The position numbers and the translations under genes are program-made. A DNA stretch of 64,000 nucleotides from NCBI GenBank assembly GCA_964016885.1, contig OZ024757.1, forward strand, positions 17,422,001 through 17,486,000, in the 5' to 3' direction. Within the stretch, counting starts at the first letter, position 1, and the number at the start of each line of letters is the position of its first letter. The notes beneath the pieces were generated by a model. The model had not been told where the DNA came from. It saw only the letters and a list, made by a program, of their open reading frames with translations, and ran no database searches. Source of the DNA: Eledone cirrhosa. Lineage: Eukaryota. This document shows positions 16,527 to 63,605 of the stretch, one piece after another.

Positions 16527-16583
16527 ATTATACATATTTCAGGGATACCATATTAAAAATATGGCATGCCTTCGTCAGATAAA
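16527..16583 (-). ncRNA. Hammerhead-like motif (degenerate stem I)
   Basis: Minus strand: CTGACGA-AGG.ATGCCATAT/ATATGGTAT.CCT-GAAA-TATG-TA, followed by AATAAA and a (TA)n boundary. Confidence 0.55.
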
Positions 16584-16789
16584 ATACAATATATAAACAG
16601 TTTTATAAATAATTTTGATGTACCATATTATAAGCGACCATTATACTAGGAAGCTGTCTGGATAGTATATCTACTCCAAAAACTTGTCGAGTGCTTTATA
16701 TCAGTTATAAAATATTTACTTGTTGTATCCCAACAATTTTAAATAAAATTTTTTGCATATATATATATATATATATATATATATTTTCA

Positions 16790-17118
16790 TTTCATTTTAC
16801 GTCCGCTTTTCCCTGCTTGCAAGGGTGGGACGGGAACTGATTCTGGCTTGATTTCTACAGCTGGATGCCCTTCCTAATACCACCCGCATTTACAGTGAGT
16901 GCTGGGTGCTTTTTTGCTGTGGCACCTCCACGACCACTTTGCAGTGAAATGATAGGGACCCCAGTCCCTATCATCTCATTTCTACAGCTGAGTAAACTGG
17001 AGCAATGTGAAATAAAGTGTCTTGCTCAAGGAAACAACACATCACCCGGTCTGAGAATTGAACTCACAACCTTTCGATTGCAAGGCCAATGCTCTAACCA
17101 CTAAGCCATGTGCCTCCA
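16790..17118 (-). mobile_element. SINE family B, full length
   Basis: Same head, centre and tail as 39955-40300; flanked by (TA)n. Confidence 0.9.
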
Positions 17119-17232
17119 CATATATATATATATATATATATATATATATATATATATATATATATATATATATATATATATATATATATATATATATATA
17201 TATATATATATATATATATATATATATATATA

Positions 17233-17945
17233 TCATCATCATCATCATCATCATCATCATCAGCGTTTAACGTCCGTGTTCCACGCTTGCATGGGTTTGG
17301 ACGGGGGTAGTCCCACTTGAGGCAAGAGTGATTGTCTTGCTCGCATAGGACTGTCTGGCAGGTTTTCTACAGTTGGATGCCCTTCCTAACACCAACCACA
17401 TTTACAGTGTGGGTCTGGGAGGTTTTTACCGTGTTGCCTACACGGCCACATTACAGCGTGGACTGTGTGTTTTTTTGTCGTGACACCTACACGATCTCAT
17501 TTGTTTCGGCCTCGATGGCGCGGCACCAACATAACTTTACATAGAACGGGGTGGTGTGGATCGGGTGGGGGTGGTGGGACGGGGTGTATTTGTTAGAGAT
17601 GCCTACTGGCTGGAGTAGGTTTTACTATATATTTAGGTAAGGCGGGTCTTCTCTGTTACTGAGTACCGCCAAAGGTCTCGGTCCAGTGACATTGTCTTGG
17701 AGAGGTGTAAGTGTGTGATGTCGGAGTTTATCAGCTCGTCCCAGGTTTTTCTAGGTCTGCCTATTCCGTGACTACCGTCTATCTTTATTGCCCTGCACTT
17801 TGTTATACAGCTATCGACTTTCATGCGCATCACGTGTCCATACCAACGTAGCCTTCTCTCGAGTAAACAACATCTGATCCCTCTTATCTCTAATTTTTTC
17901 CTTAGTTCGTTTATGCTTTGCCGTTCACGTATATTACTGTTACAT
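17233..17945 (-). mobile_element. RTE-clade LINE 3' fragment
   Basis: ORF 17633-17971 contains [13 protein letters not shown]...GRPRKTW...DRDLWR; 3' UTR ends in (GAT)n at ~17233. Confidence 0.92.
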
Positions 17946-19704
17946 ATATATATATATATATATATATACATACATGGCCTGTTTATGAGGACAGTAGCTC
18001 CAATTTAGTATTGACTTGGTCTGTGATGGGCAGAAAACCAGTCGTTGAATGATGATGATGATGATGGTGTTGATTGTGGTGTTGGTGGGAGGGGGTGATG
18101 ATACGCACCTATTAACACACCTTGTTTCTATATACAATCTATTATTTCATTAAGTTGAGATAAAGTCACGAGTTCTTTTCATAGATTTAAACTTTTCTGA
18201 TAAAATCATCAAAACTTGGCCTTATTTTGAAATTTTTTTTTCTAGTGTTTTTGTTGCTGTTGCTGTTGTTTTTTTCTTCTCTCTCCTATACCTCACCAAC
18301 ACCACCACTGCCATTATCACTATCTTTACCACCACAATCACTAGCACCACCATCATCACTATCATTACTACCACCACTGCCATCACCACTGCCATCACCA
18401 CCATCGCTACCATCATCACCACCGCTACCACCACCACCAGCACCATCATCACTATCATTACCACCACAACTGCCATAACCACTACCACCATCAACACACA
18501 CCATCACTACTACCACCACCACCATCACTACTACCACCACACTTTTATGTTTAAAAACATCACCTAAATGATTATTCCTAATTTAGAAACATGGCCTTCA
18601 ATTTGTGGGGAGGAGATGTCCATTATATTAACCCCTAGTATTTGACTGGTACTTTATTTTATTGTCCCCAGCAGATGAAAGTTAAAGTTGACATCAGAAG
18701 AATTTGAACTCAGTATGTAAAGAATCAAAACAAATAATCTTAAACCTTTATCTGACATTCTGGCAACTCATACAATTCACCTACCTCACTCCATAATAAA
18801 AAAATAATTAAAAAGTCAATTCATCATCATCATCATCGTTTAACGTCTATCTTCTATGCTAGCATGGGTTAGACAGGAATTGTCCCACTTGAGGCAAGAT
18901 TGGTTGGGTGACCGTGTCTCGCTCGTATAGGACTATCTGGCAGGTTTTCTACAGCTGGATGCCCTTCCTAACACCAACCACATTTACAGTGTGGACTGTA
19001 GAGCGTCGGACATGCTTTCCAGCATAGTTACGTCCCTTTATGATCTGAGGTCAAATCCCGCTGAGATTAACTTTGCCTTTCATCCATATGGGGTCGATAA
19101 AATAATGTACCAGTAATGTACTGGGTAATTGCTGGCCTTGTGCCAAAAGTAGAAACAATTATTATATATGTGTGTGTGTGTCTATGTGTATATGTAAAAA
19201 GTAAACAGAAATAACAGCACAATCGGCACAGTATATGGAAGGAATATATTATATTCCTTAATCCCTCCAAATTATTGATTATCCTAAAAATTAGGCAGTG
19301 TCTTATATGAGGAATATGATAATGAAAGGCTTAAACAAAGGAATAATACAAATTCTTTAATGTAGTCCTCTCTCTTTTATCTCAAGCCGAGAGGTACATC
19401 AGGCCGTTGCTTATACCAGTTTCTACACAGGCTGTGTGTGTAACAGAATCTCCTCCCCCACATTGTTCTTACTGCACGCCTCAGCCCCTACCACTACACA
19501 TAATCAACTAATTGTGTAAAACTCCTTGGTGGGGGGACACCAATCCATTGCAGGGTTAAAATCTGTCTCGAGCCCAGGGTCCCATCAGGTCATTCTTATC
19601 TTAGTTTCTAGTACAAGACTTCCTCCCTGGAAAGGACAGCACTCTATTGTAGAGTTAGCTCCCAGTCTTTGCTAGTATGCATTTTCAGCTGAGTGTACCG
19701 GAGC

Positions 19705-60836: not shown

Positions 60837-61124
60837 CCATATGTGAAAATGACAATATGTGCATACATACATATACAGACACACACACACACACACACAC
60901 ATATATATACACACACACACACATATACATACATACACATGCACACACACACACACACACATATATATATACACATATATACATACACACGCACACACAC
61001 ATATATATATATATATATATATATATATATATATATATACACACACACATATTAAATAGAAATGAATCTTGTAATTATATAATTTCCTAGTATTCAGACA
61101 GGTTTTACTGGCCTATTTCCTGTG

Positions 61125-61360
61125 ATATTACTACTGTTGCTGCTGCTACTGCTGCTGCGGCTGCTACTACTACTGCTGCTTCTGTTGTAGCTGCTGCTGC
61201 TGCTGCTGCTACTACTACTATAACTACTACTACTACTACTACTACTACTACTATTACTAATGCTGCTACTGCTACTACTACTACTACTACTACTACTACT
61301 ACTACTACTACTACTTCTTCTACTACTACTACTACTAGTACTACTACTACTACTACTACA
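61125..61360. repeat. (CTG/CTA)n microsatellite
   Basis: Direct inspection. Confidence 0.92.
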
Positions 61361-61650
61361 TCCTATTAAATGCTGCAGGTTCTCTTGCGAAAGGTCAGAT
61401 CTGGTATAAAATAATGTAGCTGAGAGATTGTCTATAGAGAAGATTGTGTGTGTATATATTATATACTGAAGCTTTGCTGTATGTATATATGTGTGTGTAT
61501 ATATATATATATGTGTGTGTGTGTAAAAGGTAAACAAAAATAACCAAGCATATATATATATATATATATATATATATATATATATATACATATTGCACAT
61601 GTATATTCATACACACCTACACTTTGGTTTTGTACATACATAGAAGTATA

Positions 61651-62560
61651 TCATCATCATCATCATCATCATCGTTTAACGTCCATATTCTACGCTAGCA
61701 TGTGTTTGGACGGGAGTTTTCCCACTTGAGGAAAGAGTGGTTGTCTTGCTCGCATAGGACTGTCTGGCGGGTTTTCTACGGCTGGATGCCCTTTCTAACA
61801 CCAACCACGTTTGCAGTGTGGAACTGGGAGGTTTTTACCGTGTTACCTACACGGCCACATTACAGCGTGGACTGTGTGTTTTTTTGTCGTGACACCTACA
61901 CGATCTCATTTGTTTCGGGCTGGATGTTGTGGTACCAACATAACTTTACATTGAAAGGGGTGGTGTGGATGGGGTGGGGGTAGTGGGACGGGGGTGTATT
62001 TTGTTAGAGGTGCCTACTGACTGTAGTAGGTTTCACTTTGTACTTTTCACTTTGTAAGGAGGGTCTTCTCTATTACTGTGTAGCGCCAAAGATCTCGGTC
62101 CAGTGACATTGTCTTGGAGAGGTGTAAGTGTGTGAGGTCGGAATTTATCAATTCGTCCCAGGTTTTTCTGGGTCTGCCTACTCCGTGGCTACCGTCTATT
62201 TTTATTGCCCTGCACTTTTTTATACAGCTGTCGTCTTTCATGCGCATCACGTGACCGTACCAAGGTAGTCTTCTCTCGAGTAAACAACATCTGATCCCTC
62301 TTATTTCTAATTTTTCCCTTAGTTCGTTTATGCTTTGCCGTTCACGTATATTACTATTACACATCCAGTGGAGCATGCAAGCTTCGTTCTTCTCCAGTCT
62401 GTGTATATCCTCTGCACACAATGCCCAGGTCTCACTGCCATGCAACATTGCTGTTCGTATGCAGGCATCATACAGCCTGCCTTTCATTTTTAGGTAGAAC
62501 CCTTTAGCGGCTAATAGTGGTATAAGCTCTCTGAACTTTTTCCATCCCGTTCTGACTCTC
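61651..62560 (-). mobile_element. Longest RTE-clade LINE 3' fragment in the window
   Basis: [16 protein letters not shown]...[20 protein letters not shown]...WYGHVMRM...GRPRKTW...; ~400-nt UTR and (GAT)n tail. Confidence 0.93.
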
Positions 62561-63308
62561 TCTATATATATATATATACATATATGTATATATATATACA
62601 TACATATATGTATATATACATATATGTATATATACATACATATATATATATTTATACATGTGTATATATATATATGTATATATATATGTGTGTGGGTGTA
62701 TATGTATACACACATATATATACATACATATCATCATCATCATTGTTTAACGTCCATATTCCATGCTAACATGGGTAGGACAGGTTGTCCCTTAGTGAGA
62801 AATCTGGTCGGCGGACTGTTTTGCTCACACAGGGTTGATTTGGGGTTGGATTCTACAGCTGGATGCCCTTCCTAATGCCAACCACATTTACGGTGTGGAC
62901 CAGGCACTTTTTGTCATGTTGTCAACACGACCATAATAAAATTTCGAATGGATGCAGTAAAAACCAGTCAGTACTCGATACTTGGGATAGTAGAGTGTGT
63001 ATTCTGAATGACTCGCGACCTGAACGCCTGAGCTCTTGAGACAGCAGGAGCTACGACATTTGGATCCTGAATCCTTCAGATATATATATATCATCATCAT
63101 CATCATCATCATCATCATCTTCGTTTAACGTCCATTTTCCACGCTAGCATGGGTTAGACAGGAGTTGTCCCATTTGAGGCAAGGCTGGTCGGGTGACCGT
63201 GTCTCGCTCATATAGGACTATCTGGCAGGTTTTCTACGGCTGGATGCCCTTCCTAACACCAACCACATTTACAGTGTGGGACTGGGAAATATATATATAT
63301 ATAAAATA

Positions 63309-63605
63309 TGTCCTTCACCATCTTGTTTTTGTGTGTTGACAACACACAAAAACAAGATGGTGAAGGACAGAACAAAGGAGAGACACAAAATAATATCCCA
63401 GTCACTGATGAGGTCACAGAATGTTGACAAAAGAGCTGTGACAATATATAAACAACCACCAACCATACCTACTTCAAATATATAATAAATTGAAGTGAAA
63501 ACCAACAGGTGTGTGTGTTTTTACTGACAACATGACCCTCCTAAAGTATAACAATATCTGTTTCAACACAGGTTTTTAGATAAGAAATCTTGCAAAACAA
63601 ATTGA
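63309..63605 (+). mobile_element. Penelope-like end fragment: perfect 61-bp palindrome, degenerate hammerhead (63401-63442), and tail homologous to the 34.5-34.8-kb element
   Basis: GTCA-CTGATGA-GGTCA...TGAC-AAAA-GAGCTG-TGAC; ATGACCCTCC..AAGTATAACAA shared with 34802-34824. Confidence 0.6.

What the first reader, a model, noticed from the sequence alone, without database searches (positions are those of the whole stretch)
16527..63442. A dispersed collection of about nine hammerhead-like ribozymes in mostly unrelated short segments lodged in (TA)n tracts
Seen: CTGANGA...GAAA cores with type I topology at 16527, 34186, 34946, 40353, 48072, 49491, 58993, 59118 and 63401. Stems differ completely between most of them, yet the architecture recurs: a mostly palindromic stem III/loop (TGCA, CAATTG, CTAATTAG, TATATA, CATATG), often a downstream AATAAA, and an element end at a TA or GAT microsatellite ~40-70 nt later. 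Known: minimal hammerheads with palindromic loop III occur in Penelope-like elements and retrozymes and are thought to cleave as dimers. Inference: many distinct PLE or retrozyme families target (TA)n in this genome, giving about one motif per 7 kb. Seven of nine are on the minus strand, which could reflect selection against self-cleavage in a plus-strand pre-mRNA.
Basis: partly seen in the sequence, partly recalled or inferred. Interest (0 to 1): 0.78.

Follow-up and report, generated by a model that had tools for sequence, protein, structure and literature searches.

The report
Hammerhead-tipped Penelope retrotransposons in TA repeats
The nine ribozyme-like motifs sit in eight high-copy repeat families that end in TA repeats, five of them the ends of Penelope-like retrotransposons and two likely their non-coding passengers; such motifs are common in this animal genome (about 60 per megabase in a sample), likely self-cleave in pairs, and the copies suggest that one RNA primes both cut DNA ends at two fixed sites.

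Summary
Observation partly confirmed: five of nine sites are complete type I hammerheads (shuffles: mean 0.05 per window); four are decayed or variant copies of hammerhead-bearing families. Each site belongs to a family with about 1,700-3,500 search candidates. Five families (16527, 40353, 49491, 59118, 63401) continue upstream into a Penelope-like RT/GIY-YIG ORF; 40353 and 59118 meet the Hydra-clade diagnostics, 63401 is Neptune/Nematis-type, and the window holds a GIY-YIG fragment at 59711-60034. Families 34946/58993 and 48072 are ORF-less tandem units (about 330 and 540 nt), retrozyme-like. 34186 is unresolved. Stem II covaries, and loop III keeps a palindrome that only a dimer can pair. 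The density is ordinary here: 35 motifs in 590 kb sampled. The strand-bias idea is unsupported. Hammerheads in Penelope elements, Hydra elements in octopus and retrozymes as their passengers are published. Not found in my searches: inverted insertions end at one site on one arm and a second site on the other (69 of 70), also in the ORF-less families, and a short motif follows these sites. Cleavage and expression are untested. New members of a known kind.

The parts
16479..16757 (-). Family A insertion between two (TA)n tracts: forward arm ending at site 1 plus inverted tail arm (about 16662-16757) ending at site 2. Complete hammerhead, core 16578, N17 16529, loop III TATGTA. 3' end of a Hydra-type PLE.
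   Evidence: 1707 candidates; EN about 1.5 kb upstream in L140 and L172
34133..34298 (+). Family B: old, decayed minimal hammerhead, core 34190, N17 34218. No partner ORF found.
   Evidence: 1932 candidates, 78-86% identity; 0 of 7 copies with EN upstream
34834..35250 (-). Family C copy 1: ORF-less unit of about 330 nt, forward arm to site 1 plus an inverted arm ending at an atypical third point. Hammerhead core 34984, N17 34953, loop III TACA (family TGCA). The upper bound is approximate.
   Evidence: (1675 candidates)
40310..40586 (-). Family D: 5'-truncated Hydra PLE ending at site 1. Variant core CCGAAGA at 40394, N17 40356, loop III CAATTG.
   Evidence: 2868 candidates; 5 of 20 copies with EN about 1.5 kb upstream
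48010..48503 (-). Family E: ORF-less unit of about 540 nt, forward arm 48433-48010 (site 1) plus inverted tail 48435-48503 (site 2). Hammerhead core 48148, N17 48077, loop III CTAATTAG.
   Evidence: 2897 candidates; 6 tandem copies in L138
49440..49656 (-). Family F: 3' end of a decayed Hydra-like PLE, ending at site 1. Complete hammerhead, core 49544, N17 49496, loop III TATATA.
   Evidence: 2504 candidates; EN 1081 nt upstream in L146
58947..59046 (-). Family C copy 2, 100 nt, lodged in the TA tail of the family G copy. Complete hammerhead, core 59031, N17 59000, loop III TGCA.
59064..60092 (-). Family G: 5'-truncated Hydra PLE, forward arm 60036-59064 (site 1) plus inverted tail 60039-60092 (site 2). 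Core 59230, long stem II, loop III CATATG, N17 59122, stem I not formed in register.
   Evidence: (1659 candidates, 98-99% identity)
59711..60034 (-). Last 108 codons of the family G GIY-YIG endonuclease, with one internal stop
   Evidence: (89% identity to the L098 ORF)
63342..63620 (+). Family H: pLTR of a Neptune/Nematis-type PLE. Core 63405; G12 reads A (63429) and position 17 reads G (63438), so this copy is decayed.
   Evidence: 3450 candidates; 4 of 23 copies with EN 206-218 nt upstream

Best explanation
The motifs are hammerhead-type RNA motifs near the 3' ends of Penelope-like retrotransposons (mostly Hydra clade) and of ORF-less tandem repeats that likely borrow the same enzyme, left in (TA)n tracts as mostly 5'-truncated insertions. 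Shown: five families run upstream into an RT/GIY-YIG ORF, intact pLTR-ORF-pLTR copies carry a hammerhead in each pLTR, and copies end at two fixed points downstream of the hammerhead. Inferred: the endonuclease cuts both strands of (TA)n. An RT dimer bound to one RNA starts cDNA on one DNA end at site 1 and on the other at site 2, and the two cDNAs join head to head, giving the inverted arm with its 'tail'. A short signal just 3' of each start (CTCY, 4-30 nt, RTNGAG) likely positions the Hydra RT. Inferred from the literature and from covariation: the hammerheads cut multimeric transcripts by pairing their palindromic loop III between two copies. Families C and E would thereby release unit-length RNAs that may circularise.
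For: ORF linkage. Hydra diagnostics: against PMC8557442 section 11. About 55 of 150 scored family D matches lie in open frames of 800 aa or more (counted by eye). 271 of 278 microsatellite-flanked 3' ends fall at site 1 or 2. Of 73 inverted insertions, 70 had both ends at a site and 69 were site 1 + site 2; without families A and E, whose queries carried that shape, it is 36 of 37. Frangieh 2024 shows in vitro that a PLE protein cuts and extends both strands and starts at two internal RNA sites that define the tail. Family A stem II: 9 of 10 pairs change on both sides, and 0 of 500 shuffles reach the observed pairing or covariation score. Loop III is CAATTG or CAGCTG within family D. The central pair is Watson-Crick in 13 of 15 even-length loop types. 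Monomer stem III hairpins are unstable (+1.5 to +6.0 kcal/mol); dimer duplexes of the eight self-complementary loops are stable (-2.2 to -11.1), the decayed TACA loop is not. The 3' signal is present at 10 of 14 sites against 0.53% of 82,136 background TA positions; it was predicted for D site 2 before it was seen (note, seen).
Against: No cleavage, transcript or circle was observed. Family G is 98-99% identical between copies yet lacks stem I in 13 of 13 copies, and the Anolis PLE inserts in vitro without hammerhead cleavage, so cleavage may be dispensable. No autonomous partner was found for C or E, and their units show no DNA or protein similarity to the five autonomous families tested. The 3' signal is absent from both C sites and from H and K, is only a relaxed match at E site 1, was fitted post hoc on related families, and RNAfold gives no common hairpin for it. 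The site windows (20-35 nt wide) were drawn from the same histogram they classify, and the A, F and H templates stop at site 2. Stem I and stem III barely vary in family A, and the shuffle control ignores relatedness. Family D stem II shows no covariation signal. Family B is unassigned.
Confidence: 0.85

Rival explanations
1. The elements are PLE ends, but the hammerhead is a passenger or a weak, protein-dependent switch that is not needed for insertion.
For: Family G lacks stem I in 13 of 13 copies yet spread recently. Family D has a fixed CCGAAGA core. PAc hammerhead mutants still insert in vitro. Only 1 of 9 Xenopus retrozyme dimers cleaved in vitro.
Against: Compensatory changes in stem II and in the centre of loop III between subfamilies point to selection on the fold. 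The catalytic boxes are kept across more than ten families.
Confidence: 0.3
2. The short elements (C, E) are retrozymes moved by a LINE or copied as RNA, independent of Penelope proteins.
For: No EN lies upstream in 39 C and 40 E copies other than nested neighbours. No similarity to the autonomous families tested. C lacks the 3' signal. Cervera 2020 names LINEs as possible drivers.
Against: C and E show the same two TA-flanked end sites and the same site 1 + site 2 inversion rule (11 of 11 each) as the ORF-bearing families. E carries the signal at site 2.
Confidence: 0.1
3. The tandem and inverted structures arise at the DNA level (unequal crossover, fold-back, or two independent insertions into one TA tract), not in one priming event.
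For: TA tracts attract nested insertions (C inside the G tail). Li et al. 2026 favour DNA-level expansion for tandem arrays. Long arrays such as the six 559-nt units in L138 may have grown this way.
Against: Independent insertions or fold-back would give same-site pairs about half the time or always; the observed count is 1 of 70. Arms were scored only without a long TA tract between them, and the junctions differ from copy to copy.
Confidence: 0.07
4. The motifs are oriented by selection against cleavage of a plus-strand host pre-mRNA, or serve the host.
For: All 5 complete motifs in the window are on the minus strand (p=0.06). Only 1 motif was found in 100 kb inside two Ig-domain genes, where about 6 are expected.
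Against: 7 of 9 gives p=0.18; flanks are 5 minus and 4 plus; no host exon was detected nearby; the single intragenic motif was in sense orientation.
Confidence: 0.1
5. The motifs are chance matches in AT-rich repetitive DNA.
For: Rfam finds no hammerhead. Folding z-scores are modest, -0.5 to -2.5. A few sampled hits look accidental.
Against: 5 against 0.05 expected; 35 against 0.9 expected; 20 of 35 loops fully self-complementary against 1 of 18 among shuffle hits; covariation; fixed position in PLE pLTRs.
Confidence: 0.01

Closest known systems
Hydra-clade Penelope-like elements (Craig et al. 2021, PMC8557442), including Hydra-1_Obim of Octopus bimaculoides
   Same: Single ORF with C-terminal GIY-YIG, DKT, CxCX5C linker, no CCHH, CxxC and CxH motifs, canonical hammerhead near the 3' end with self-complementary stem/loop III, insertion into (TA)n, inverted 5'-truncated copies and a tail.
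   Different: The paper lists one octopus family without a pLTR and calls Hydra elements generally under 3 kb. Here there are several families (units of 3.1 and 4.2-4.7 kb, 3' UTRs up to 1.5 kb), dozens of intact ORFs, tails of about 90-165 nt rather than 30-40 nt, long and varied stems II, and a CCGAAGA core in family D.
Poseidon element PAc of Anolis (Frangieh et al. 2024, PMC11167929)
   Same: Two internal cDNA start sites downstream of the hammerhead that define the tail, AT-rich target, both strands cut and extended, predicted protein dimer.
   Different: Another clade. PAc showed no difference in start site between strands in vitro, whereas the genomic copies here pair site 1 with site 2 almost without exception. 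The starts here lie before the ORF, not inside it, and are followed by a shared short signal.
Non-LTR retrozymes (Cervera and de la Pena 2020, PMC7229834; Li, Clavereau and Pollet 2026, 10.64898/2026.07.22.740005)
   Same: ORF-less tandem units of a few hundred bases with one type I hammerhead per unit, low GC, co-occurring with PLEs (families C, E, J).
   Different: Those studies argue for PLE mobilisation from co-occurrence and pLTR similarity, in coral, mussel and vertebrates; the preprint text has no cephalopod, and no 'tail'. Here the insertion junctions themselves carry the PLE signature. Circular RNA is not shown here, and E (540 nt) exceeds the 170-400 nt range of the 2020 paper.
Minimal hammerheads of metazoan PLEs (Cervera and de la Pena 2014, PMC4209133)
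   Same: Dispersed single motifs from truncated PLEs, many sequence families per genome, long stem II, short stem I, palindromic position 15.2-16.2 and loop 3, opposite-strand pairs 100-700 bp apart.
   Different: Reported counts were 2,000-9,000 per genome; the sample here extrapolates to about 110,000-250,000, with a different descriptor.

Membership tests
Type I hammerhead ribozyme | CUGANGA and GAAA boxes with NUH site | tested here: met
   Met at 6 of 9 sites with all boxes in register (16527, 34946, 48072, 49491, 58993, 59118) and at decayed 34186; variant C4 at 40353; broken at 63401
Type I hammerhead ribozyme | Three helices around the core, helix I open-ended | tested here: met
   5 of 9 window copies; covariation of helix II in families A, E, F; not met in family G
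Type I hammerhead ribozyme | Self-cleavage at N17 | not testable with these tools
   No RNA run listed; needs an in vitro assay
Type I hammerhead ribozyme | Match to an Rfam hammerhead model | tested here: not met
   No hammerhead family among 145 matches at E up to 1, or at gathering thresholds
Hydra-clade PLE | Single ORF, RT then C-terminal GIY-YIG EN | tested here: met
   Intact 830-832 aa ORFs in family D; G, A, F in broken copies; Pfam hits are weak and below cut-off
Hydra-clade PLE | DKT in place of DKG; RWK-type N-terminal motif; no GxKF/Y | tested here: met
   DKT in D, G, F; RIKWK in G and RVRWR in D; no N-terminal GxKF/Y in the D ORF
Hydra-clade PLE | CxCX5C linker, no CCHH cysteine pair between GIY and YIG, CxxC and CxH near the C terminus | tested here: met
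   D and G in full; A has the linker, a single cysteine and CxxC; not readable in the decayed F partner
Hydra-clade PLE | Hammerhead in the pLTR and insertion into (TA)n | tested here: met
Hydra-clade PLE | RT phylogeny groups with named Hydra elements | not tested
   No named Hydra proteins were on hand as tool output; one search returned 791 relatives, nearly all unnamed
Neptune/Nematis PLE (family H only) | CX2-5CxxC linker and two cysteines between GIY and YIG | tested here: met
   (L142, L127); Neptune and Nematis were not told apart
Non-LTR retrozyme (families C, E) | Short tandem units, each with a type I hammerhead, no coding region | tested here: met
   Periods 322-339 nt (C) and 532-561 nt (E); no tblastn match to six PLE protein pieces; no EN upstream
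Non-LTR retrozyme (families C, E) | Expressed as unit-length linear and circular RNA | not testable with these tools
   No RNA holder listed; the contigs laid were of unknown kind

The most novel reading that the evidence does not exclude
A Hydra-clade RT dimer reads two copies of a short bipartite RNA signal (CTCY...RTNGAG) on one transcript and primes the two ends of a cut (TA)n tract at two different fixed sites. This would explain the PLE tail and inverted ends. ORF-less retrozymes would be moved by the same route. The genome would carry over 100,000 hammerheads from many still-active families, with intact proteins and natural signal variants to test it.
Probability: 0.4. Interest if true: 0.7.

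Novelty: new member of a known kind. Interest (0 to 1): 0.4.

Why it matters
The kind of element is known, so the window itself is ordinary for this genome. Two open questions become easier to test. First, how PLEs make tailed, inverted insertions: the near-absolute site 1 + site 2 rule and the candidate RNA signal give concrete predictions for an in vitro assay with an intact natural ORF. Second, what mobilises animal retrozymes: the ORF-less families carry the same junction signature. The CAATTG/CAGCTG change is natural evidence for dimer pairing of loop III. The density estimate also means that hammerhead motifs may be a sizeable, unannotated part of this genome's introns and intergenic DNA.

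Tried and rejected
Rfam at both thresholds found no hammerhead, only microsatellite-driven miRNA noise and tRNA-like SINE heads. The one-mismatch 'relaxed' core scan added no site, and its shuffle background was higher (0.5-0.9). A genome search with a Pfam accession recalled from memory was not possible, since the family is not in the library; ORFs from fetched loci were used instead. Pfam scores for Hydra ORFs are weak or nil. ORFs lying downstream of C, E and F copies (L025, L027/L135, L046/L137, L075/L127) were rejected as partners: they are other elements nested behind TA tracts or SINE ends. Host gene: 145 of 293 candidate ORFs within 100 kb each side were scanned and gave only transposon domains; 148 shorter ones were not scanned. 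Intron orientation test: 600 kb were planned, 100 kb could be fetched, and these held 1 motif, so there is no verdict. Expression: no RNA holder listed; laying contigs of three runs of unknown kind from one sample says nothing about expression. A common hairpin for the 3' signal is not supported by RNAfold. No read-through past site 2 was found for A, and none was confirmed for F. Earlier scan notes: none. No structure or complex prediction was run.

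
Full report
Setting. The window is G000:C18:17422001-17486000 in a 3.0 Gb animal assembly. About 87% of it is repeat by my masking, with tRNA-headed SINEs, satellites and (TA)n tracts. It looks like an octopod genome by size and repeat content; that is my recalled impression plus one named homolog from Argonauta, not a test.

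Observation. Of 18 CTGANGA cores, 5 pass a strict type I scan, against a shuffle mean of 0.05, and 0 of 100 shuffles reach 5. The other four are family members with defects or variants. 40353 has the family-wide core CCGAAGA and a private stem I mismatch. 63401 has lost G12 and the UH site, while 22 of 26 distinct relatives keep GAAA. 34186 is a decayed copy of an old family. 59118 has all boxes but only 1 bp of stem I, as in 13 of 13 relatives. Rfam reports no hammerhead. Folding z-scores are -0.5 to -2.5; stems I and II appear in the predicted folds of the five complete motifs.

Families. Each site is one copy of a high-copy family: A 16527 (1707 first-look candidates), B 34186 (1932), C 34946 and 58993 (1675), D 40353 (2868), E 48072 (2897), F 49491 (2504), G 59118 (1659), H 63401 (3450). 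Candidates are not copy numbers, and only the best 40 were scored in each search. A GIY-YIG ORF ends on the same strand upstream of the hammerhead in 9 of 14 G copies (about 490 nt), 5 of 20 D (about 1500 nt), 4 of 23 H (about 210 nt), 2 of 56 A (about 1500 nt; two further A hits were nested neighbours behind TA tracts) and 1 of 18 F (1081 nt). For F, that 3' UTR also lies just upstream of F hits at three other places. The window itself holds the last 108 codons of the G endonuclease at 60034-59711, with one stop. No own ORF lies upstream in 39 C, 40 E or 7 B copies. C and E form tandem units of 322-339 and 532-561 nt, up to six in a row, with no match to PLE proteins.

Clade. D and G have DKT, YRDD, an RWK-type motif, a CxCX5C linker, one cysteine between GIY and YIG, and CxxC and CxH motifs. 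These are the Hydra diagnostics of PMC8557442 (section 11). The A partner has the linker, single cysteine and CxxC; the F partner is decayed but has DKT. H has a CX4CxxC linker and the cysteine pair, so it is Neptune/Nematis-type. A search with the D N terminus gave 15,297 candidates; about 55 of the 150 scored lie in open frames of 800 aa or more (counted by eye). Fetched examples are pLTR-ORF-pLTR with a hammerhead in each pLTR, 4.2-4.7 kb apart, often with an inverted copy at the 5' side. The paper's supplement already lists Hydra-1_Obim from Octopus bimaculoides, with (TA)n preference and a hammerhead.

Selection on the fold. In 36 distinct family A motifs chosen without a stem II pairing filter, 9 of 10 stem II pairs change on both sides; 0 of 500 shuffles reach the observed pairing (93.9%) or covariation score, and slid registers fall to 34-63%. 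That control ignores relatedness, and stems I and III hardly vary (they were part of the anchor). Arm-swap tests were positive for A and E, weak for F and nil for D. Loop III is more telling. Within D it is CAATTG or CAGCTG with an identical stem II, a double change at positions that cannot pair inside one hairpin. The central pair, which the scanner does not require, is Watson-Crick in 13 of 15 even-length loop types seen at least twice; 2 odd-length types were left out. Monomer hairpins are unstable and dimer duplexes of the palindromic loops are stable. This matches the dimer model in PMC4209133 and PMC7229834. Cleavage was not observed.

Density and strand. In 59 unbiased 10-kb stretches taken at round coordinates (60 asked for, 1 absent), there were 35 motifs against 0.9 in shuffles: 59 per Mb, bootstrap 37-85, or about 110,000-250,000 in the genome. 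28 of 35 have a TA or TC tract within 160 nt downstream, against 24% background. Published counts with other descriptors are over 6,000 in a coral, about 5,000 in a mussel, 126,247 in the 28-Gb axolotl and 9,000 in Xenopus. This genome is therefore dense, but I have not shown it to be a record; Schistosoma may be as dense (recalled, not checked). Five in 64 kb is expected (P=0.33). The strand bias is not significant, the flanks are 5 minus and 4 plus, and no host exon was found nearby.

Insertion anatomy. In all seven families with templates, microsatellite-flanked 3' ends fall at two points downstream of the hammerhead: 271 of 278 ends. The site windows were set from the same histogram, and three templates stop at site 2. 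Of 73 head-to-head insertions, 70 had both ends at a site; 69 were site 1 + site 2 and one was site 1 + site 1. By family: C 11 of 11, D 11 of 11, E 11 of 11, A 22 of 22, G 5 of 5, F 2 of 2, H 7 of 8. The A and E queries carried this shape and bias those counts; the rest give 36 of 37. In the window, A, E and G show it directly. PMC11167929 shows in vitro that a Poseidon protein cuts AT-rich DNA on both strands, extends both, and starts at two internal RNA sites that equal the genomic tail; it found no strand difference in start site, and cleavage by the hammerhead was not needed. PMC8557442 notes a tail often at only one end. My inference is one RNA, an RT dimer and one start per DNA end. Since both arms can include the hammerhead, the site 2 cDNA must displace the site 1 cDNA or use a second RNA; the data do not decide this.

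A candidate signal. Just 3' of the end sites, in sequence that the last unit does not copy, CTCY followed 4-30 nt later by RTNGAG occurs at 10 of 14 sites examined (one is a D subfamily), against 0.53% of background TA positions. I noted it before seeing D site 2 and then found it there. By eye it is also present in two further families. It is absent from C, H and K, is a relaxed match at E site 1, comes from related families, and has no common predicted hairpin. It is a lead, not a result.

Literature seen. PMC7229834: parts 1-4 of 6 (abstract to discussion). PMC11167929: parts 1-2 of 4 (main text). PMC4209133: parts 1-2 of 4. PMC8557442: passages, outline, sections 3 and 11, one supplement search and part 2 of 59 of its supplement. 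10.64898/2026.07.22.740005: parts 1-3 of 5 and a term search; its supplements were not seen, and its listed invertebrates are three insects and a coral. PMC7761336: passages. The preprint already concludes that animal retrozymes are non-autonomous PLE derivatives. Nine searches showed no paper on a cephalopod hammerhead census, the site 1 + site 2 rule or the signal; I judged most listed papers by title and abstract start only, and subscription papers and Repbase were not searchable.

Verdict. The feature is real and the PLE/retrozyme reading is right. It is new members of known kinds, ordinary within this genome, with a testable mechanistic by-product. Confidence in the identity is about 0.9; in two-site priming from one RNA about 0.7; in dimer cleavage in vivo about 0.6; in the signal about 0.45. 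Interest 0.4.

Noticed in passing
window 34473-34830: A head-to-head insertion of family H-like 3' ends without a hammerhead, directly beside the C copy.
   Followed up: partly
window 16300-16440 and 47700-47905: Very short inverted insertions of another TA-targeting family (48 distinct contexts in the fetched sequence) whose end site is followed by the same CTCY...RTNGAG signal; no hammerhead in these window copies.
   Followed up: partly
window 16540-16571 and 49508-49537 (stem II of A and F): The fourth position of stem II never pairs: C.C in 30 of 34 A and 12 of 13 F variants, amid covarying pairs. It may be a tertiary contact site.
   Followed up: no
L278-L297: The youngest family with many intact 830-832 aa ORFs has the core CCGAAGA and an A.G or C.A mismatch at the base of stem II in nearly all copies; its activity is unknown.
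   Followed up: partly
L142:7499-9311, L146:8904-9768, L281, L283: Another ORF-less tandem family (about 427-524 nt period, loop III CTAG), in L142 arranged head to head.
   Followed up: partly
L127:3926-6265, L137:5440-7038, L143:2868-3989: Further PLE families of other types (DKG with CX4CxxC linker; YVDD without that linker) nested in TA tracts next to the families studied.
   Followed up: no
L298-L307: Only 1 complete motif in 100 kb inside two Ig-domain genes, against about 6 expected; a weak hint of depletion in genes, and one of the genes is exon-dense.
   Followed up: partly
window 15707-15764 (-), 49747-49802 (+), also 17051, 39965, 41854: tRNA-like heads of a SINE family that ends in ATC and TA tracts; several hammerhead elements abut these tails.
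   Followed up: no
window 8077-11576, 21728-25426, 31248-32832, 38231-39476, 42801-45686, 54321-57129: Long minisatellite arrays with units of 48, 29, 93, 112, 72 and 34 nt; the 112-nt unit resembles part of the SINE.
   Followed up: no
L052:303-824 and L104:3-554: Host-like exons close to family A and H insertions, resembling a neurotransmitter transporter and a Frizzled domain (names recalled from the translations, not tested).
   Followed up: no
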